Positions 26,334 to 36,198 of a stretch of 56,284 nt of DNA are shown one piece after another. A model generated the notes under the pieces. That model was not told the DNA's origin, searched no databases, and saw only the letters and a list, made by a program, of their open reading frames with translations. The stretch's first letter is position 1. The number at the start of each line of letters is the position of its first letter. This DNA comes from Bacteroides sp. UBA7335 (lineage in GTDB: Bacteria; Bacteroidota; Bacteroidia; Bacteroidales; Bacteroidaceae). The stretch is from positions 1 through 56,284 of the forward strand of contig DKPL01000003.1 of assembly GCA_002471185.1 (NCBI GenBank), given 5' to 3'. Made by a program: the position numbers and the translations under genes.

Positions 26334-26660
26334 TTACTCTAATGAGATCACTTTTTTGATGCCCAATATCAATAACACTACTACTGCAATAATAATTGAT
26401 TTAGGATTGGTATACAAGTCGCTTGATTGCGCAATCGATACAAAAATATCGCGGAAGATATAAATCAGTCCTAAGAACCCATCATACATAATGAAGAGTA
26501 CAAATGCCAAAAGTGTAATAATCAGGGTGCAGATTTTAAATGCAACTCTTCTCTCTTTAGGTAAGCTTTGCATTACTTTGCGACTGAATCCTCGGTCGGC
26601 TATCTCTTTCTTGTTGTCTTCAAAAAAGTGACGAATCATTTTATCATCTGTTTCCATCAT
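26334..26660 (-). CDS. DUF5056-like membrane protein, putative anti-sigma factor
   Basis: IADRGFSRKVMQSLP followed by two TM segments; overlaps the ECF sigma stop codon. Confidence 0.75.
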   Translation of the reverse strand: MMETDDKMIRHFFEDNKKEIADRGFSRKVMQSLPKERRVAFKICTLIITLLAFVLFIMYDGFLGLIYIFRDIFVSIAQSSDLYTNPKSIIIAVVVLLILGIKKVISLE

Positions 26661-27192
26661 AACCGTTTTGTTTTAAATAAGAAGCCATTTTCTCTTTGGC
26701 TCTCGACAGGTGGCTCTTTACTGTTCCTGTAGGGAGACCGGTTATACCCGATATTTTGTCAATACTTACATCTTCCATATAAAATAACGTAATGCAAGTA
26801 CGTTCGGTTTCCTTGAGCTGCCTTAAAGCTTCATAAATATCCATTTTTTGTCCCACATTGACTTGCTCTGTGTTGTATTGGTTATCTATTTCGCGTGCAT
26901 TCAAGTCGGCCGTTAGCTTCTGGCTGCGAATATAATCATAAAATACATTATAAGCAATTCGATAGAGCCAAGTTGAGAAGCTAGAAAGATTTTGAAAGCT
27001 AGCTATGTTTGTGTAAGCTTTGATAAACGTATCTTGGGCTAGGTCGTCGCTTAGTTCGCTATCGCCACACGTCTGGTTTAAGAAAAACCGGCGGATGGGC
27101 GATTGATACTTTTGCACCAACTGGTCGAAGGCCTTAGTGTTGCGAAACACTACGACCTGCGCCACCAATGATATGTCGTTTAGTTGGCTCAT
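26644..27192 (-). CDS. ECF RNA polymerase sigma factor
   Basis: Region 2 DDLAQDTFIKAY and FSTWLYRIAYN; region 4 GTVKSHLSRAK. Confidence 0.95.
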   Translation of the reverse strand: MSQLNDISLVAQVVVFRNTKAFDQLVQKYQSPIRRFFLNQTCGDSELSDDLAQDTFIKAYTNIASFQNLSSFSTWLYRIAYNVFYDYIRSQKLTADLNAREIDNQYNTEQVNVGQKMDIYEALRQLKETERTCITLFYMEDVSIDKISGITGLPTGTVKSHLSRAKEKMASYLKQNGYDGNR

Positions 27193-27854
27193 TCGTTATT
27201 ATTGTTCGAGCTGTTTTTGCGAGCTACCAAGTATTGCCCTACTCCATTGAAAAATACTAGAATACCGATACAGCCTACTCCAAAACTACCTGTAATGGCC
27301 CATAAGAAGATAAAGAGTCCTAAACCGGTACACATATTCTTTATCCCTTTGTTTTGGGTGTCGAGCTTATCTTTCAGGATACCCTCGGGTAGTGGCTGTC
27401 CCGACTCTAAGGCCTTCTCTACCAATCGGTAGCGTTCGCGACGGTTGCGGTAGCGGAAGTAAAAAGCCAATAGGATAATAATCAGTGGGAAGGCAAATAC
27501 TACAGCTATAGAAAAAAAGGCCAATGAGATGCCTGCGCTAGCCGTAGCTCCTATATCTTTTAAAAAGCTACTGTCAATATTCAGACCTTTAGTGAGGTCG
27601 GCAACACCATTACCATAATCGTCGTTTACACTATCTATCACGGTACTCTCAACGGTTATTCCTTCTTCGTCTGTGTCGGTATAAGAGGGCGTATAACTGG
27701 TCGTTGTAGCGACTTTCTTTTGTTGCACCACAGTCTGTGCAGCCTTTTTGTTTCCACTGCTATCTGTATTGCTGACTGTGATTTTGGCTGATTGAGCAAG
27801 TGCTATTGAGCAACTCATCAACACAATCGTTAAAGTGGTTAAAATCTTTTTCAT
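27189..27854 (-). CDS. DUF6249-like membrane protein
   Basis: Signal peptide, TM segment, RYRLVEKALESGQPLP, two more TM segments; translationally coupled to the ECF sigma. Confidence 0.75.
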   Translation of the reverse strand: MKKILTTLTIVLMSCSIALAQSAKITVSNTDSSGNKKAAQTVVQQKKVATTTSYTPSYTDTDEEGITVESTVIDSVNDDYGNGVADLTKGLNIDSSFLKDIGATASAGISLAFFSIAVVFAFPLIIILLAFYFRYRNRRERYRLVEKALESGQPLPEGILKDKLDTQNKGIKNMCTGLGLFIFLWAITGSFGVGCIGILVFFNGVGQYLVARKNSSNNNNE

Positions 27855-28006: not shown

Positions 28007-29437
28007 ATGAATTTACCTGCTCCATTTATTGAATATACTCGCAGTCTGTTGGGCGATGAGGCTTACCAAAAATTAGCCCAAGCACTCTCTGAAACTCCTC
28101 CTGTTAGCATTCGTTTCAATCCCGAAAAGTACAACTTACCTTCGGTTGCATACGATAAGGTTCCTTGGAGTAGCGAGGGAGTTTATTTAGACGAACGACT
28201 TACGTTTACTTTCGATCCGTTGTTTCATGCGGGTTGTTACTATGTACAAGAAGCCTCTTCGATGTTTGTTGAGCAAGTGTTGCGTCAGTATGTCAGTGGA
28301 GCCATTAAAATGCTCGACCTTTGTGCGGCACCCGGTGGAAAGTCCACACACGCTCGTAGTGTGTTGCCTCAAGGCAGCTTGTTGGTGTCCAACGAACTGA
28401 TGCGCAATCGCTCGCAGGTGCTTGCCGAAAACCTGACCAAGTGGGGCTACCCCGAAGTGGTGGTAACCAATAACGATCCTGCCGATTTTACTTCTTTGAC
28501 CGACTTCTTTGATGTGATACTAACTGATGTGCCTTGTTCGGGTGAGGGAATGTTTCGCAAAGACGAAGTTGCCATTGAAGAGTGGAGTCCCGAGAATGTT
28601 GAAATCTGCTGGCAGCGTCAACGTCGTATCATTGCCGATATATGGCCCTCGTTGAAACCGGGCGGACTACTGATATATAGCACTTGCACCTACAATACTA
28701 AAGAGAACGAAGAGAATGTGCAGTGGATAAGCCAAACCTATGATGCTGAGGTACTGCCAGTGGCTACTCAAACCGATTGGAACATCACCGGCAATCTCTT
28801 GGCTGGAGCCGATTTCCCCGTTTATCGCTTTTTGCCCTCACGCACTCGTGGCGAAGGTTTCTTTTTGGCCTTGCTACGCAAACCGGCTGATGAAGATGAA
28901 GTGGGGCAAAACTACCAAGCTAAGTCAAAAAAAGGTCGCAAGAAACTCGATAACAAAGCGCGTAAAAAGGCACCAATCATTACCAAAGAACAGCTGAAGT
29001 TGGCTAGTAGCTGGCTCAATCAAGTCGATAGCTTCAGCTTACAGACCGATGATACCACGGTGAGCGTATGGCCCGTGCGCTATGCCGACGATATCGAAAC
29101 CCTACGCGATGCACTTCGCGTGGTTCAAGCCGGTGTAACAGTTGCCGAAGTGAAAGGACGCGACCTAATTCCAGATCATGCCTTGGCCATGAGTAATCTA
29201 TTGGCTGATGATGTTTTTGCACAGCAAGAGGTCAGTTACGAACAAGCCATTGCCTATTTGCGCAAAGAAGCCATCTGTTTACCCCTCGAAGCTCCCAAAG
29301 GATATGTACTACTGACTTACCGACAAAAACCGCTGGGCTTTGTGAAGAATATAGGTAACCGTGCCAACAACTTGTATCCACAAGAGTGGCGCATCCGGAG
29401 TGGTTATTTGCCTGAAGAGATTAAAACCATTGATTGA
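28007..29437 (+). CDS. rsmF: rRNA cytosine-C5 methyltransferase (RsmF/YebU, NOL1/NOP2 family)
   Basis: YYVQEASSM, DLCAAPGGKS, DVPCSGEGMFRK, YSTCT and NNLYPQEWR motifs. Confidence 0.9.
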   Translation: MNLPAPFIEYTRSLLGDEAYQKLAQALSETPPVSIRFNPEKYNLPSVAYDKVPWSSEGVYLDERLTFTFDPLFHAGCYYVQEASSMFVEQVLRQYVSGAIKMLDLCAAPGGKSTHARSVLPQGSLLVSNELMRNRSQVLAENLTKWGYPEVVVTNNDPADFTSLTDFFDVILTDVPCSGEGMFRKDEVAIEEWSPENVEICWQRQRRIIADIWPSLKPGGLLIYSTCTYNTKENEENVQWISQTYDAEVLPVATQTDWNITGNLLAGADFPVYRFLPSRTRGEGFFLALLRKPADEDEVGQNYQAKSKKGRKKLDNKARKKAPIITKEQLKLASSWLNQVDSFSLQTDDTTVSVWPVRYADDIETLRDALRVVQAGVTVAEVKGRDLIPDHALAMSNLLADDVFAQQEVSYEQAIAYLRKEAICLPLEAPKGYVLLTYRQKPLGFVKNIGNRANNLYPQEWRIRSGYLPEEIKTID

Positions 29438-29456: not shown

Positions 29457-29502
29457 ATAGAAAGCGAGCCGAAGTTAACAGTAACTTCGGCTCGCTTTCT
29501 AT
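29457..29502. terminator. Strong hairpin or terminator after rsmF
   Basis: Perfect 21-bp inverted repeat ATAGAAAGCGAGCCGAAGTTA / TAACTTCGGCTCGCTTTCTAT. Confidence 0.8.
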
Positions 29503-29754: not shown

Positions 29755-30933
29755 CTATAGCCTGCTTTTATACAACTGAGCCATAACCTTTTGATACTGG
29801 CTTTCTAGTTGCAGGTAGTTCAGTTTGCTTTGATAAATTACCGATACCTCTACAAAGTATTCAATCATACTGATTTGTCCACCCGTAAGTGCCTGTTTCA
29901 GTAAGCTCAAATCTTGTTGAGCCTGAAACGTAGTTTGATATGCTTTCATCGAAGTGTATAAACTTTCTGCTTCACGATAGTTGCGTAAAAGCGACGACTC
30001 CAACTGTTGAGAGGCATTTTCTTTACTGAAATCATTGTTGAGCAGTTGCGCCTTGGCAATCTTTACTTTATTGCGATTTTGAAATAACGGCAACGAGCCG
30101 CCTACCACAATACCATTGAAAGGGGCACCCGTCTCGGTGTTGCGTCTATACCCAACTTCCAGTTTCGGAATCCACCCTTGTCGCTCTACTGACACTTGTC
30201 GGCGAAGTGCATTGCCTTGGTTGGTGAATTGCTGTAAGGTGGGGTCGGACTGCATCACCTCGGCCTTGAGCTGCTCAAAATCGAGTGGAAACTCAGTTGC
30301 CGGATAACTCTGGGCGGTGAAGTTGATGGGGACATTGCCATTGAGCGCCGTTAGCTCTTCTAGCTTGTTGCGCAAAGCAGTGTTGTTGAGTGTAGCTTCG
30401 GTCTTTACATTAAGTAGCTCCAAGTTGATTTTGTTGGTTTCAAGAATGTTGGCATCGCCCGCTTGCAATCGTTGTTGATAAAGCGAAGCCAGTTCGTTGG
30501 CATTGCGAAGACGTTCTTGAAGAATCTGCTGCTCTTGTCTAAGCATGATGATGTCCATGCACAACTCTTTGGCCTGCAACAAAATGGTTTGTCGCAAGGC
30601 TTGATACTCATTGTCGTAAGCTGCCGATTTTATTTTGTTGACTTTGTTACGCTCTACATATAACGTAGGAAAATCGAACGACTGTGTAACCACCAACTCG
30701 CCAATGGTTTGACTTTTATCGTCTGCACCCCATAAGTGAGCATACGACACTGTGGGGTCGGGGAGGTTATTGTCGGTACGCGTTTCTAACTTCTGAGCCT
30801 TTACCAGTTGGGCATTTGCCTGCAACGCCTTATTGTTAGCTTCGATGGTTTGCAGGGTTTGCTCTATATTGTTTTGTGCCTTTGCCTGACTAAGCATCAA
30901 CAGTGCACATGCATATATCCATAATCTTTTCAT
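29755..30933 (-). CDS. TolC/CzcC-type outer membrane efflux protein
   Basis: Signal peptide; SLPLFQNRNK motif; last gene of the metal RND operon. Confidence 0.85.
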   Translation of the reverse strand: MKRLWIYACALLMLSQAKAQNNIEQTLQTIEANNKALQANAQLVKAQKLETRTDNNLPDPTVSYAHLWGADDKSQTIGELVVTQSFDFPTLYVERNKVNKIKSAAYDNEYQALRQTILLQAKELCMDIIMLRQEQQILQERLRNANELASLYQQRLQAGDANILETNKINLELLNVKTEATLNNTALRNKLEELTALNGNVPINFTAQSYPATEFPLDFEQLKAEVMQSDPTLQQFTNQGNALRRQVSVERQGWIPKLEVGYRRNTETGAPFNGIVVGGSLPLFQNRNKVKIAKAQLLNNDFSKENASQQLESSLLRNYREAESLYTSMKAYQTTFQAQQDLSLLKQALTGGQISMIEYFVEVSVIYQSKLNYLQLESQYQKVMAQLYKSRL

Positions 30934-30938
30934 AAAAC

Positions 30939-33900
30939 TTACTCCTTATCATTATTTATCATTACTTGGTGAGCCTCTACGCTCGCATTTCTGCGATGAA
31001 TCATTAAATAAACAATGGGGATAATAAAACCATTGAGAAAGGTAGAGGTCAGCAATCCGCCCAATATCACTTTGGCCATGGGACTCTGAATCTCATTGCC
31101 CGGTTGGTCGCCCGCTAGTGCTAGCGGAATCAGTGCCAATGCCGACGAAAGAGCCGTCATCACAATGGGGTTTAAGCGGTCTAACGAACCCTTTATCACA
31201 CTGTCGTATATGTTGATGCCTTCGACCTTCTGCAAGTGATTGTAGTGGCTGATGAGCAACATGCCGTTGCGAGTGGCAATGCCGAATAAAGAGATGAAGC
31301 CGATGATGGCCGGTATGCTGATTTCGCCTGTGGTGATGAGAAGTGCAAACACACCGCCAATGAGGGCCAACGGTAGGTTGAGCAAAATAATGCCCGACTC
31401 TTTGAGGTTGCGGAACTCGTGGTAAAGCAACAGAAAGATGATGACGATGCTCATTAATGATGTCAGCAGCAAGATGCGACTGGCTGCCTGTTCGCTTTCA
31501 AACTGTCCACCATACTCTATATGATACCCTTCGGGCAGTTGCACTTGAGTAGATACAATCTGCTGAATATCGTTGACCACACTGCGCAAGTCGCGGTCGG
31601 ACACATTGGCCGATATTACAATTTTGCGCTTCACATTCTCTCTGCTGATGGTGTTCGGCCCCATGGCAGAGGCTACATCTGCTACATAGTTCAGCGGCAC
31701 TTTGGTGCCATTGCCGGCATCAATGGTCAAGTCACGAATCTTATCAATGGCATCTCGATAATTATCATTCACCTTCACAATCAGGTCGAAGGCTTTGCCT
31801 TTGTCATAAACTTGTGAAATAACCTCGCCCGCCAAAGCCACGTTGACATATTCTGAAAATTCGGGCAACGTAATGCCAAACTTCGCTAACATTTCGCGTT
31901 TGGGTGTGATTTTGAGTTGAGGCCGTTCAACCTGTTGCTCTACATTCAAATCGGCAATACCCGGCACATCGGCAATAGCACCTTTTATCTCATTACCCAG
32001 CGAGAACATTTTAGTAAGATTGTCGCCAAAAAGCTTGATTGCAATGTTTGCCTTTGTACCGCTAAGCATAGCATCAATGCGGTGGCTGATGGGTTGACCG
32101 ATTTCAATGTTGGCCCCCACTAACGTGCCCAGTTTCTCTCTGATTTCGGCCATTACCTCCGAACGCGAACGCTTATCAAGCACAAAAGGCGCTTCAATCT
32201 CTGAGGTGTTCACCCCCAAAGCATGCTCATCCAATTCAGCCCTACCCGTTTTGCGTGCCACCGTTTGAATCTCCGGAATAGTAAGCAGTAGCAGTTCGGC
32301 ACGCTCCCCCATACGGTTGCTCTCTTCTAAAGAGATACCGGGAAGCGAAGAGATATTGATGGTAAACGAACCCTCGTTGAAAGGCGGAAGAAATGAGCGC
32401 CCTAACGTAAAGAAACAAATGACTGCTGCCACAAACACTGCGATGGTAGAGGATAAGGTGACTGTTTTGTGGCCTAGCACCCAGGTGAGCATTTTGCCAT
32501 AAACCCTTTTCATATTTCGAGTGATAAACGACTCCTTATTCGGTTTGTCTTTCTTCTTATCATTGCCCAATAAGTAAGAGCATAGCACCGGGGTAAGGGT
32601 AAGCGCCACTATGGTAGAGGCAAAGAGTGCAACAATAAAAGCAATGCCTAGCGGTACCAACATACGCCCTTCCATGCCGGTGAGGAAGAAGAGTGGAATG
32701 AAGCTGGCAATGATAATGAGTGTAGAGTTCAAGATAGGCATACGTACCTCTTTTGAGGCTTTAAACACCACCTCCTTGATAGGCAACTGCTCGCTTTTGG
32801 GCAACAACCTATTCTCGCGCAAGCGTTTATATACGTTTTCTACATCCACAATGGCATCATCTACCAGCGAACCGATGGCGATGGCCATACCACCCAGACT
32901 CATTGTGTTGATGGTCATGCCCATGAAGTGAAGCGTTAATATGGATACCAGCAAGGCTAAAGGTAGCGTAACTAACGAAATGAGTGTGGTGCGGACATTG
33001 GCTAAAAACAAAAACAGAACGATGACTACAAAAATACCTCCTTCGAACAATGCTTTCTTAACATTGTCTATGGAGTTTTCGATAAATCGGCTTTGACGGA
33101 AAATATCGGTAGAGATCTTTACATCTTTCGGTAGGTTTTGTCTTAGTTCGGCAATGGCATCTTCTAACTTTTTGGTTAGCTCGATGGTGCTTGTAGCCGG
33201 TTGTTTGGTCACCGTCATCAACACAGCCGGTTTGCCTCGCTCGGAGGCAGTACCTAGCCTAGGTGCTTTAGGTCCAATCACTACATCAGCAATATCTTCG
33301 AGCAGTACCGGGTAATTGTCTACACTTTTCACTACTCCTTTGCCCAATTGCTCAATGTCATTGGTGGCTAACACTCCACGTACAATATATTCATTGCCAT
33401 ACTCATAGAGCACACCCCCGTTGGCATTTAAGTTCATGTTGCGTGTGGCAGTCATCACCTCATCCAGCGATACATTGTAGTGACGCATTCGTTGCGGATC
33501 GAGCTGAATTTGGAACTCTTGAATATCTCCTCCCAAAACAGCAACCTGCGCTACACCACCGGTAGATAGCAGGCGTGGACGAATGGTCCAATCGGCCAAG
33601 GTGCGCAAGTCGAGCATCGAAGTCGTGTCGGCAGTAATACCGATAATCATGACTTCGCCCAAGATAGACGATTGCGGACCTAGCGTAGGACTGCCTACGT
33701 TGGGTGGAAGTGACTCGCCCATAGCGGCCAGCTTTTCGCTTACAATTTGGCGCGCCAAGAATACATTGGTTCCCCAATCAAACTCTACCCAAACTACCGA
33801 AAAACCATTAGTCGAAGACGAACGCACACGGCGTACTCCGGTTGCTCCATTCACCGATGTTTCGATGGGAAACGTTACCAACTGTTCTACCTCTTCGGCA

Positions 33901-34070
33901 GCCATCCCATTGGCTTCGGTCATTACTACCACTGTAGGAGCATTCAAATCGGGGAATACATCGACATCCGTATTCATGGCTGTATAGGTGCCCACTACCA
34001 TTAATATAAGTGCGGCAGCCAACACCACAATTCGGTTGTGTAACGAGAATTGTAATATCTTATTAAGCAT
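30939..34070 (-). CDS. Heavy-metal efflux RND permease (CzcA/CusA family)
   Basis: VDVFPDL, EEVEQLVTFPIE, MSLGGMAIAIGSLVDDAIV and GIATRNG motifs. Confidence 0.92.
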   Translation of the reverse strand: MLNKILQFSLHNRIVVLAAALILMVVGTYTAMNTDVDVFPDLNAPTVVVMTEANGMAAEEVEQLVTFPIETSVNGATGVRRVRSSSTNGFSVVWVEFDWGTNVFLARQIVSEKLAAMGESLPPNVGSPTLGPQSSILGEVMIIGITADTTSMLDLRTLADWTIRPRLLSTGGVAQVAVLGGDIQEFQIQLDPQRMRHYNVSLDEVMTATRNMNLNANGGVLYEYGNEYIVRGVLATNDIEQLGKGVVKSVDNYPVLLEDIADVVIGPKAPRLGTASERGKPAVLMTVTKQPATSTIELTKKLEDAIAELRQNLPKDVKISTDIFRQSRFIENSIDNVKKALFEGGIFVVIVLFLFLANVRTTLISLVTLPLALLVSILTLHFMGMTINTMSLGGMAIAIGSLVDDAIVDVENVYKRLRENRLLPKSEQLPIKEVVFKASKEVRMPILNSTLIIIASFIPLFFLTGMEGRMLVPLGIAFIVALFASTIVALTLTPVLCSYLLGNDKKKDKPNKESFITRNMKRVYGKMLTWVLGHKTVTLSSTIAVFVAAVICFFTLGRSFLPPFNEGSFTINISSLPGISLEESNRMGERAELLLLTIPEIQTVARKTGRAELDEHALGVNTSEIEAPFVLDKRSRSEVMAEIREKLGTLVGANIEIGQPISHRIDAMLSGTKANIAIKLFGDNLTKMFSLGNEIKGAIADVPGIADLNVEQQVERPQLKITPKREMLAKFGITLPEFSEYVNVALAGEVISQVYDKGKAFDLIVKVNDNYRDAIDKIRDLTIDAGNGTKVPLNYVADVASAMGPNTISRENVKRKIVISANVSDRDLRSVVNDIQQIVSTQVQLPEGYHIEYGGQFESEQAASRILLLTSLMSIVIIFLLLYHEFRNLKESGIILLNLPLALIGGVFALLITTGEISIPAIIGFISLFGIATRNGMLLISHYNHLQKVEGINIYDSVIKGSLDRLNPIVMTALSSALALIPLALAGDQPGNEIQSPMAKVILGGLLTSTFLNGFIIPIVYLMIHRRNASVEAHQVMINNDKE

Positions 34071-34084
34071 CTTTTCCTCCCTTC

Positions 34085-35296
34085 TTAATGTTCGTGACTG
34101 TGTGCAGGTAGTGATGCCGATGCCGATGCCAATCGTACTTGGTATGCTCCTTTAGTTACTACATTGTCGCCGGCGTGAATACCCGAAACAATTTGTACAT
34201 CCACTCCATTATCTGCCCCTAAGATTACTTCTCGTCGCTGATACCCTTCATCATCTAACTTTACATAAACAAAGTGCAATCCTTGCTCTTCGGTTAGGGC
34301 CGTGCGCGGTAGTACCAAAGCATTGTCAATAGGCGATGATAATAGGTAAATCTCTACAAACGAACCGGGTATGATGTCTCCTTGATTGTCGAACTCAAAA
34401 ACAACCGGCACGTAAAACGTGTTAGCCTCTGCTGTTTTTCCGGTTGAAAGTAATTTTCCATTCAAGGCAGCCAATTCATATACGCGGTTGTCATAAGGTG
34501 TTTGAAAGTTGGCCGAACGAATGGTGGTTAAATAAGGATAATATTTTTCTGATACATCAGCTCTAAGAAATAACTTTTGATTTTGAGTGACACTAACCAA
34601 AGGTTGCCCAATAGTTACATAATCTCCTTCGTTTACCAATACATTTTTTACATATCCGTTGATGGGAGCTTTGATGGCTTGTCCGCTTTTGGTGTTTCCG
34701 CTGGCCAATGCCTCGTAACTGATGCGAGCATTCTCAAAGTTTTGTTCGGCTTGTGCGAACTCTCGTTCCGAAACAATCTTATTGCCTACCAATGCCTTCA
34801 TACGCTCGTACTCTTTTTTAGCAATGTCGTATGCTATTTGAGCACGTTGCACCGGATCTCCATCAGCAATGTTGCTCGATGAAATGGTGACCAGTGTAGT
34901 ACCCTTACTCACACTCTTTCCGGGGGTTACACTACCATTAAAGCTCACCACACCAGCTACAGTGGCTACTGCTACCGACTCATCGCCTTGTGCCACTTGC
35001 ACCTGTCCACTAGTCTTAATCACTTGTTGAAATGCCGAAGGCTGAATAATGGCCGTTTGTACTCCAGCTGCTTTGGCTTGTGCAGCGCTCATTACAATCT
35101 CATCGCCATGCGACTCGCTCTGGGCAGTTGCTGCTGTATTATGTTCTTCTCCTTCTATATGGTTGTGGCCATCATTGGCTGCATGCTGTTCGTCAATTGC
35201 ATGATCGTGTCCTTCATGCTCGTTTGTGGTATGTTTGCCGCAAGAGCTAATAGCGAATATTGCTATTACTCCCATAAATATAACTTTCCTCATCAT
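34085..35296 (-). CDS. His-rich RND periplasmic adaptor (CzcB-like) lipoprotein
   Basis: Lipobox ISSC, His-rich N-terminus, KAPING motif, C-terminal HSHEH. Confidence 0.9.
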   Translation of the reverse strand: MMRKVIFMGVIAIFAISSCGKHTTNEHEGHDHAIDEQHAANDGHNHIEGEEHNTAATAQSESHGDEIVMSAAQAKAAGVQTAIIQPSAFQQVIKTSGQVQVAQGDESVAVATVAGVVSFNGSVTPGKSVSKGTTLVTISSSNIADGDPVQRAQIAYDIAKKEYERMKALVGNKIVSEREFAQAEQNFENARISYEALASGNTKSGQAIKAPINGYVKNVLVNEGDYVTIGQPLVSVTQNQKLFLRADVSEKYYPYLTTIRSANFQTPYDNRVYELAALNGKLLSTGKTAEANTFYVPVVFEFDNQGDIIPGSFVEIYLLSSPIDNALVLPRTALTEEQGLHFVYVKLDDEGYQRREVILGADNGVDVQIVSGIHAGDNVVTKGAYQVRLASASASLPAHSHEH

Positions 35297-35340
35297 GATA
35301 TAGTTATTCGTTATCTTAATAAATTTAGCTATTGTTAATA

Positions 35341-35406
35341 ATAAAACACCTGTATATGCAGTTTGTTTGCTTCAATAGTGAGTTGAAGCAAGGTAAATAA
35401 GGTGTT
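35341..35406 (-). terminator. Putative attenuator hairpin between the leader ORF and the efflux operon
   Basis: Inner stem TTGCTTCAA / TTGAAGCAA (35367-35391) and outer stem AACACCT / AGGTGTT; a U-rich tail follows on the minus strand. Confidence 0.5.
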
Positions 35407-35433
35407 AAATGGATTGATTCCTATTAAATTAAC

Positions 35434-35838
35434 TTAGCATTGAGGAGGACCACGAAGTAGTTTGCTGTGAGTAAAATCGGAGTTAAATAGTGCCTCTTTA
35501 TCGTGATGCTTTGGTTTTAGTTTGTATTCGCTCGTACAAATCAACCAATCTATCGTGAAATTTTCGGCAAATAGAGCAATAATAATGGGATGGGGAGAAA
35601 AACTCCCCTCTTCAGCACTAGCCACATACGAGCTGAACTTAGCTTGACACATACTATTACAACACGAATCGTCTTCAGACTCTGCGCTATGATTATGTTT
35701 CGAACAATAGTTGTTGTTCTCACCAGTCAGTAAACAAATCTGTCCATCTTGATGATGGTGGTGGGGGATGAGAGGAATGGCCAGCAATGCAATTGTGGCG
35801 AGCATTATAATAAATAATATGTAGTGCTTATTCCTCAT
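35434..35838 (-). CDS. His/Cys-rich leader protein (DUF6769-like) with C-terminal RGPP
   Basis: Hydrophobic N-terminus, PHHHHQDGQIC, CSKHNH, CCNSMC; ends LLRGPPQC; has its own -7 element. Confidence 0.8.
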   Translation of the reverse strand: MRNKHYILFIIMLATIALLAIPLIPHHHHQDGQICLLTGENNNYCSKHNHSAESEDDSCCNSMCQAKFSSYVASAEEGSFSPHPIIIALFAENFTIDWLICTSEYKLKPKHHDKEALFNSDFTHSKLLRGPPQC

Positions 35839-35857
35839 GGTCTATATTTATGCATTG

Positions 35858-35865
35858 CAAATGTA
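35858..35865 (-). promoter_or_regulatory. -7 element for the leader/metal efflux operon
   Basis: Reverse complement is TACATTTG, about 20 nt upstream of the ATG at 35838. Confidence 0.65.
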
Positions 35866-36198
35866 TGCAATTCATTTCTACTAGCCAATAATAAATAGTA
35901 AATATTTGATTAATAGGTTTGTAATCGGTTACTGAAAGCTTTATGAAAAGCGCGTAAATGTTCATTTCTATATAGTTAATAAAGTTTAAAGAATATTTAT
36001 AAGTTTGATAGTACCTCCCTAAAAGCCTATATTTGCTTTATCTGATGAATAGAGATAGTTGTTGATGATACTATGTGTACTAAAGGGCTTAATCTCTTTT
36101 TTATTCCCCCTCTATGTTTTAAGCTCTTCTTGCTCGTTCTTGCCTTTTGCGCAATTATGTTTAGTTTGATTCTGTCACTTATACTTTGAAAAATGATA

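What the first reader, a model, noticed from the sequence alone, without database searches (positions are those of the whole stretch)
35434..35838. Candidate metal-sensing ribosome-arrest leader (RGPP) upstream of a heavy-metal RND operon
Seen: the first ORF after the only clear -7 promoter of the czcB-czcA-czcC-like operon is a 134-aa protein. It has a signal-like hydrophobic N-terminus, clustered metal ligands (PHHHH-x5-C, CSKHNH, CCNSMC) and RGPP (35443-35454) two codons before the stop. Established: RAPP/RAGP/RGPP-type motifs drive stalling in SecM, ApdA and ApdP, and the DUF2946 leader CruR of Bordetella pertussis combines an export signal, CxxC and C-terminal RAPP to control a downstream copper operon. 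Inference: this is an analogous cis-acting leader in Bacteroidota, in which metal binding or membrane pulling on the nascent chain tunes stalling and so efflux pump expression. I know of no characterised example in this phylum.
Basis: partly seen in the sequence, partly recalled or inferred. Interest (0 to 1): 0.82.

Follow-up and report, generated by a model that had tools for sequence, protein, structure and literature searches.

The report
Ribosome-stall leader before Bacteroides metal pump
A small gene ending in a known ribosome-stalling motif sits in front of a heavy-metal efflux pump here and across many Bacteroidales, and it likely senses metal while being made and switches the pump on by a predicted RNA helix, an untested cousin of the copper sensors CruR and CutF.

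Summary
In detail: a 134-aa DUF6769 protein with a hydrophobic N-terminus, PHHHH-x5-C, CC-x3-C and RGPP, behind a full -33/-7 promoter and ahead of a B-A-C heavy-metal RND operon. All 78 relatives found through the pump adaptor with a readable leader carry R[AG]PP near the stop, while the middle drifts. The class is known (CruR, CutF), and DUF6769 members are already listed as candidates in a 2025 source-data table; I found no experimental study. Two additions. (1) In many relatives the codons just after R[AG]PP are predicted to pair with the pump's initiation zone; a parked ribosome would lower the opening cost by at least 2 kcal/mol in 15 of 26 and 13 of 40 representatives, against 1 and 1 for a control. 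That points to stall = pump on. The window itself does not show this. (2) 48 of 78 spacers hold a second promoter with a TGCAA-N5-TTGCA box that also precedes metal ATPases and a Fur-like gene; the window has lost it. Stalling, metal binding and the metal itself are untested.

The parts
35886..35888 (-). TTG core of a Bacteroides-type -33 element, 20 nt before the -7 box
   Evidence: the same spacing of 20 in 43 of 56 leader promoters examined; consensus recalled
35858..35865 (-). TAnnTTTG (-7) promoter box, 19 nt before the leader start
   Evidence: 66 of 78 loci have one within 100 nt upstream of the leader
35434..35838 (-). Leader ORF, 134 aa, DUF6769 (PF20558)
   Evidence: E 4.5e-17, 63 bits, cut-off 27
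35767..35820 (-). Hydrophobic N-terminal helix (aa 7-24); likely an uncleaved signal anchor
   Evidence: A-x-A before PHHH in 4 of 158 and a lipobox in 1 of 158 homologues; no signal-peptide predictor was available
35734..35766 (-). PHHHH-x5-C, candidate metal ligands at the membrane surface
   Evidence: fourth His 79 of 79, C35 78 of 79 (PHHH was the filter used to pick the ORF)
35647..35664 (-). CC-x3-C cluster (C59, C60, C64)
   Evidence: 68, 75 and 71 of 79
35524..35589 (-). Predicted amphipathic helix (aa 84-105), with L90 held 39 +/- 2 residues before the motif Arg
35443..35454 (-). RGPP arrest-type motif, two codons before the stop
35297..35433 (-). 137-nt spacer with a 9-bp hairpin (35367-35391) inside a 7-bp stem (35345-35351 with 35400-35406); no -7 box, no terminator-like site
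35357..35371 (-). Two-mismatch look-alike of the TGCAA-N5-TTGCA box without a -7 box behind it; remnant or chance
   Evidence: a further change inside it in runs X3 and X5
34085..35296 (-). RND periplasmic adaptor with His-rich N-terminus
30939..34070 (-). CusA/CzcA-family heavy-metal RND permease
29755..30933 (-). TolC-type outer-membrane factor
29457..29502 (-). Terminator-like 20-bp hairpin closing the operon

Best explanation
The gene encodes a small His/Cys protein with a conserved C-terminal RGPP and is likely a cis-acting leader whose ribosome would stall at RGPP for longer when metal binds the exported N-terminal part, which is predicted to free the pump's initiation zone and raise pump synthesis. 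Shown: the ORF, its motifs, their conservation, its position and the promoter boxes. Established elsewhere: RAPP/RGPP arrest in other contexts. Inferred: the helix anchors the nascent chain in the inner membrane with PHHHH and the Cys residues outside; the last Cys sits about 66 residues before the Arg, enough to clear ribosome and translocon; metal binding lowers the pull that would release the stall (CutF model); the stalled ribosome covers the tail codons that otherwise pair with the A-rich zone about 24 to 1 nt before the adaptor start. In this window that last step is not predicted by folding, so the output route here is open.
For: R[AG]PP 2-14 residues from the stop in 78 of 78 leaders found via the adaptor, with mixed synonymous codons. 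40 of 58 phmmer hits whose match ended before the motif still carry it. Next gene is an RND part in 59 of 69 wider loci. C64-to-Arg spacing 66 +/- 2 while the C35-C64 loop varies +/- 5 (163 sequences). Tail pairs better with its own initiation zone than with others: -8.8 vs -5.5 kcal/mol (34 representatives) and -5.6 vs -4.1 (57 wider ones), no permutation of 20,000 reached it; an upstream control segment gave -5.1 vs -4.5 and -4.2 vs -4.1. The signal peaks at R+6..R+35 and ATG-24..+5. Blocking the stall footprint gains >=2 kcal/mol in 15 of 26 and 13 of 40, control block 1 and 1. RGPP gave the most robust arrest in swaps (PMC12992588 section 8). CutF precedent.
Against: No expression, stalling or binding data. 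In the window the opening cost is 9.0 free and 10.0 stalled, and no gain appears in 24 settings. 11 of 26 and 27 of 40 representatives show less than 2 kcal/mol gain. 48 of 78 spacers hold an internal promoter whose transcripts would lack the leader. The B. thetaiotaomicron orthologue operon rises 2.5-3.3-fold under iron depletion, not a metal-excess condition. R[AG]PP arrest depends on context and was not tested on Bacteroidota ribosomes in what I read. Related genomes are not independent; I only dereplicated at 70% tail identity.
Confidence: 0.55

Rival explanations
1. Same arrest leader, but the output is transcriptional as for CruR: the stalled ribosome shields the spacer from Rho or from decay.
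For: The window shows no initiation-zone switch and has 16 C against 5 G in the 70 nt after the footprint; no intrinsic terminator-like site in the spacer; CruR has the same RAPP and a long spacer.
Against: C-over-G skew is modest across the family and does not mark loci lacking the helix (Spearman -0.12, p 0.55, n 26; -0.13, p 0.41, n 40). CruR logic (metal releases, gene off) is the wrong sign for an exporter.
Confidence: 0.15
2. Arrest leader with the opposite sign: stalling lasts when metal is scarce and the pump serves in starvation or metal rebalancing.
For: BT2038-40 and BT2511-12 are both up under iron depletion; the box regulon includes a TonB-dependent receptor and a Fur-like gene; some leaders precede uptake-type genes (TonB receptor, HupE/UreJ).
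Against: The same box precedes two P1B ATPases whose motifs look like Zn/Cd and Cu exporters (classes recalled), and sits where the -33 element is missing (4 of 36 have TTG), as an activator site would. Induction was only 2-10-fold against several hundred-fold for true iron uptake genes in the same table.
Confidence: 0.12
3. The leader monitors secretion capacity or periplasmic disulfide formation, not metal; the Cys residues fold by disulfides that pull the stall loose.
For: SecM-type leaders work this way and CutF is modelled with two disulfides; four conserved Cys could form two bridges.
Against: The four His are better conserved than any Cys, and the downstream genes are metal exporters rather than Sec or Dsb genes.
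Confidence: 0.1
4. A stable membrane-anchored metal-binding accessory protein that acts in trans (CzcI, CusF or SilE-like); RGPP is incidental.
For: Exported His/Cys-rich protein in an RND operon; CzcI-type proteins lack regulation by a proline motif; AlphaFold gives an ordered N-terminal part (mean pLDDT 73).
Against: Would not explain a near-invariant R[AG]PP on an unstructured tail, a motif that proteomes avoid, nor the tail-to-initiation-zone pairing; the sequence between motifs is only about 33% identical.
Confidence: 0.06

Closest known systems
CutF of Rhodobacter capsulatus (cutFOG; DUF2946-like; bioRxiv 2022.11.11.516240 = PMC9973294, bioRxiv 2025.02.05.636593)
   Same: Small exported first gene with Cys ligands and a C-terminal proline motif; copper-induced stall melts a structure over the next gene's start and turns a detox gene on.
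   Different: CutF has a cleaved signal, CxxxC and PPP, is EF-P sensitive and unmasks a Shine-Dalgarno site. Here: PHHHH plus four Cys, R[AG]PP, a likely uncleaved anchor, an RND pump as target, and a phylum that does not use Shine-Dalgarno sites (PMC6847099 abstract).
CruR (Bp2923) of Bordetella pertussis, DUF2946/PF11162 (PMC9426467; arrest shown in PMC12992588)
   Same: uORF with export signal, metal ligands at a conserved distance from a C-terminal RAPP, long spacer, first in a metal operon.
   Different: CxxC 45 residues before RAPP, copper releases the stall, Rho terminates, an importer is switched off. Here no CxxC at that distance (last Cys 66 before Arg), the target is an exporter, and the protein does not match PF11162.
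RAPP/RGPP uORF candidates of Fujiwara et al. 2025 (PMC12992588, Fig. 4 source data)
   Same: The list holds DUF6769 proteins upstream of RND adaptors (45 mentions in the held, cut file; adaptor class 620 RAPP vs 148 AAPP, 16-fold), including BT_RS10320.
   Different: Listed only; DUF and efflux are not mentioned in the main text, none was tested, and no RNA switch or second promoter is described in what I read.
SecM, ApdA, ApdP arrest peptides
   Same: RAGP/RAPP core; SecM stall melts a stem over the next gene's start.
   Different: They monitor secretion and precede sec genes; no metal-ligand cluster.

Membership tests
DUF6769 (PF20558) | Score above the Pfam cut-off over the whole model | tested here: met
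   63.3 bits vs 27, positions 2-129 of 130; ESM Atlas top hits 0.97 are DUF6769
DUF2946 (PF11162; CruR) | Match to the PF11162 model | tested here: not met
   No hit for the window protein; 4 of 74 relatives hit weakly, best E 0.0013
DUF2946 (PF11162; CruR) | CxxC about 45 residues before RAPP | tested here: not met
   CC-x3-C with last Cys a median 66 residues before the Arg vs 45 in CruR
CutF-like proteins (rule-based, Ozturk 2023) | <150 aa, PP in the last 15 residues, next gene on the same strand within 1000 nt | tested here: met
   134 aa, RGPP, 137-nt spacer
CutF-like proteins (rule-based, Ozturk 2023) | N-terminal signal peptide | tested here: inconclusive
   Hydrophobic helix present but no A-x-A or lipobox; no predictor available; their File S1 was not among the held supplements
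RAPP/RGPP arrest peptides | R[AG]PP near the C-terminus of a small exported protein, conserved at protein level | tested here: met
RAPP/RGPP arrest peptides | Arg-dependent peptidyl-tRNA accumulation or toeprint | not testable with these tools
   needs in vitro translation
Metal-sensing leaders (CruR/CutF type) | Metal- and ligand-dependent control of the next gene in cis | not testable with these tools
   the one RNA run covers 151 nt of the adaptor only
Stall-opens-start switches (SecM/CutF type) | Structure over the next start that overlaps the stalled footprint | tested here: inconclusive
   Met in 15 of 26 and 13 of 40 representatives, not in the window
HME1/HME2 pumps (CzcA, CnrA) | DFG-x3-DGA-x3-VEN in TM4 | tested here: not met
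   TM4 reads AIG-x3-DDA-x3-VEN here and in 73 related loci; signature from PMC3637150. Assignment to HME5 is recalled, not tested.

The most novel reading that the evidence does not exclude
Bacteroidales run metal export through a two-input gate: a nascent, membrane-anchored His4/Cys4 sensor reads periplasmic metal and, by stalling, peels its own last codons off a Shine-Dalgarno-free initiation zone, while an undescribed Fur-like activator binding TGCAA-N5-TTGCA reads cytoplasmic metal and either bypasses the leader from an internal promoter (many Bacteroides) or drives it from upstream (other lineages). The window would be a strain left with the leader alone.
Probability: 0.3. Interest if true: 0.72.

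Novelty: new variant of a known kind. Interest (0 to 1): 0.5.

Why it matters
Only two metal-sensing arrest leaders have been worked out, both for copper and in Proteobacteria. DUF6769 offers a His-rich version in dominant gut bacteria, with a genetically tractable member (BT_RS10320 before BT2038-40). The predicted helix shows how a stall could control initiation where ribosomes ignore Shine-Dalgarno sites, and gives a direct compensatory-mutation test. The box points to a metal-export regulon in Bacteroides for which my two searches found no paper.

Tried and rejected
No genome is held for the window, so its own regulon could not be scanned. Word-index protein search found only a near-identical copy. 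Foldseek against PDB: no match. Generic sigma-70 and terminator scans were at chance level (16 vs 14.9, 7 vs 7.5). Folding of the window's leader end plus spacer is not more stable than shuffles (z -1.19). A Rho-type C-over-G signature did not separate loci with and without the helix. The palindrome as an RNA hairpin tied to the stall was rejected: its distance to the stop ranges 0-95 nt, its distance to the -7 box is 12 or 13. The CCT bias of the first Pro codon (63 of 79) was not pursued. The DNA alignment for counting compensatory pairs (26 chosen loci) was out of register on the A-rich side, so no pair count was made. The RNA run X12 gave one 151-nt contig: no evidence on expression. L090 has stops and was dropped as a false hit. 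The only paper naming DUF6769 in its main text (PMC11669294, passages) proposes a Salmonella effector; I did not test it and see no link. Runs with small shares were not used for habitat.

Full report
Observation. It is a DUF6769 protein. It follows a TAnnTTTG box with a TTG 20 nt upstream (Bacteroides consensus recalled) and precedes an adaptor, a CusA/CzcA-family permease and an outer-membrane factor, closed by a terminator-like hairpin. Close relatives of the adaptor are Bacteroides. The stretch is held by fish-associated metagenomes, and contigs from runs X2 and X3 span it without indels; 7 of 10 strain differences in the gene are silent.

Conservation. I searched with the adaptor, not the leader, and got 80 loci. 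One has no upstream DNA and one only 328 nt, which still shows a RAPP tail. In the other 78 an ORF picked by PHHH lies directly upstream, and all 78 carry R[AG]PP (77 RAPP, 1 RGPP) 2-14 residues from the stop, with varied synonymous codons. Pairwise identity is 0.99 at the motif, 0.78 at PHHHH-C and 0.33 in the middle (PHHH is fixed by the filter). Of 107 phmmer hits, 48 of 49 whose match included the end and 40 of 58 whose match stopped short carry the motif; at least one of the rest ends in the other-frame text seen at L006 and looks frameshifted. Alignment A1 was built mostly from motif-bearing hits, so its invariants are by construction. With A1, 65 of 251 genomes of the order matched. Of 72 loci examined (69 of the 71 rows plus 3) 53 end in RAPP, 13 RGPP, 2 RGSP and 4 none, a count the profile biases upward. 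The next gene, readable in 69, is an adaptor in 53, an RND permease in 5, an outer-membrane factor in 1, a YHS protein in 3, a TonB receptor, a PAP2 and a HupE/UreJ protein in 1 each, and unassigned in 4.

Anatomy. AlphaFold (74 rows, mean pLDDT 73, pTM 0.42) gives a helix at 2-23, short strands at 26-28, 33-36 and 66-69, a helix at 84-105 and an unstructured tail; no solved fold matches. A-x-A sites (4 of 158) and lipoboxes (1 of 158) are rare, so the helix is likely an uncleaved anchor. Length changes fall in the C35-C64 loop (sd 5.0), whereas C64-Arg (66, sd 2.1), L90-Arg (39, sd 1.8) and L117-Arg (12, sd 0.1) are tight in 163 sequences. This fits a ruler between an exported sensor and a stalled ribosome; that reading is inference.

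RNA switch. Folding showed that the codons right after R[AG]PP often pair with the zone 10-25 nt before the adaptor start, with different sequences in different clades. Tails pair better with their own zone than with others in 34 representatives of the close set (-8.8 vs -5.5 kcal/mol) and 57 of the independent wide set (-5.6 vs -4.1), beyond all 20,000 permutations; a control segment shows little difference. Against shuffled partners the signal is confined to R+6..R+35 and ATG-24..+5 (mean z -0.8 to -1.5). Blocking a stalled-ribosome footprint lowers the cost of opening the start by >=2 kcal/mol in 15 of 26 and 13 of 40 representatives, raises it in 1 and 0, and a same-sized block upstream gains in 1 and 1. 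So where the helix exists, stalling would turn the pump on. Against this: over half of all representatives show no such gain, starts in the wide set were chosen by rule, and the window gives 9.0 free vs 10.0 stalled, with no gain in 24 settings, although its tail-zone duplex ranks 8 of 34.

Second promoter. In 78 spacers (77 relatives plus the window; L007 left out for an uncertain start) 52 hold TGCAA-N5-TTGCA with at most one mismatch, and 48 of these have a -7 box 12 or 13 nt later; equal-length DNA before the leader has it in 4. These promoters mostly lack the -33 TTG (4 of 36) that leader promoters have (48 of 56), as expected for an activator site. In 10 of 66 wide loci the exact box sits before the leader instead. 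In genome G001 the pattern occurs three times (control 0): before the adaptor, before a P1B ATPase followed by a Fur-like gene, and before a TonB receptor-HMA-P1B ATPase operon. It occurs in 3 of 5 further genomes, in G256 directly before the Fur-like gene; G259 has neither box nor close orthologue, G260 has the orthologue but no exact box. The window has only a two-mismatch look-alike and no -7 box, so here the leader promoter is the only visible one. In B. thetaiotaomicron BT_RS10325-35 and BT_RS12705-10 rise under iron depletion and the leader BT_RS10320 is not named in the text, weakly in line with a bypass promoter and a caution on the sign.

Literature seen. PMC12992588: outline, passages, sections 8 and 13, and rows of one cut supplement. 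PMC9426467: passages. bioRxiv 2025.02.05.636593: first of six parts and passages. bioRxiv 2022.11.11.516240: passages; it reports CutF-like proteins in Bacteroidota (19-40% of its list) and before OEP, CusA and CusB genes; its File S1 was not held. PMC10434189, PMC7060636, PMC3637150, PMC11669294: passages. PMC6847099: abstract. Searches for an experimental study of this family or box found none; the library omits most subscription papers.

Verdict. The feature is real and works like CutF more than CruR; it is a member of DUF6769, not of DUF2946. My rough odds: arrest at RGPP 0.85, cis control of the pump 0.75, metal as input 0.7, the full stall-on model 0.55 for the family and lower for the window's own spacer. 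The class is known and the family is already in a candidate table, and other windows of this scan raised similar leaders, so the basic idea is not new. The tail helix in a phylum without Shine-Dalgarno sites and the box regulon are the new, testable parts. Interest 0.5.

Noticed in passing
L096:2998-3417 (+), L088:1996-2520 (-), G256:C271:2171-2634: Fur-like regulator next to a CadA-type ATPase, with the TGCAA-N5-TTGCA promoter upstream of its own operon: candidate regulator of a metal-export regulon in Bacteroidales.
   Followed up: partly
L097:6242-6640 (-): A second, unrelated Cys-rich 132-aa leader with no Pfam hit and a PPPP run near its end precedes a TonB receptor-HMA-copper ATPase operon in G001; the spacer again holds the box and -7 promoter. 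CutF-like candidate.
   Followed up: partly
L091:1483-1899 (+), L092:1255-1680 (-), L151, L176: DUF6769-like leaders ending in RGSP instead of R[AG]PP; in L091 and L092 a methyltransferase and TolC follow.
   Followed up: no
L110, L111 (G258): Two extra leader copies in one genome, each with the exact box at its promoter, ahead of a PAP2-family gene (L110) and a similar-looking gene (L111) rather than a pump.
   Followed up: partly
L145, L147, L154, L166: Leaders with the box upstream that precede a small membrane protein with a YHS-like domain.
   Followed up: no
L026, L030, L032 spacers: Long near-perfect palindromes (about 40-100 nt) inserted in the spacer where relatives have the box promoter; look like REP- or MITE-type insertions.
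   Followed up: no
L016, L018, L019, L021, L022, L027, L065, upstream of the leader: A small two-gene cassette (an ATPase-like ORF with a GCNGAGKT loop, seen in L021, and a 65-85 aa partner) is inserted before the leader and displaces its promoter; zeta-toxin-like label recalled, not tested.
   Followed up: no
window 35847-35872: The -7 box is flanked by a perfect 6-bp inverted repeat with a 6-nt spacer, one base off the family box spacing.
   Followed up: partly
window 26334-27854 (-) and 28007-29437 (+): ECF sigma-like gene cluster and RsmF methyltransferase beyond the operon; RsmF and the membrane-protein gene next to it lie in the same order in G001 (L098), so the pump loci are orthologous.
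   Followed up: partly
L008: Record labelled Coprobacillus carries a Bacteroides-type locus nearly identical to L004; probably mis-binned.
   Followed up: no
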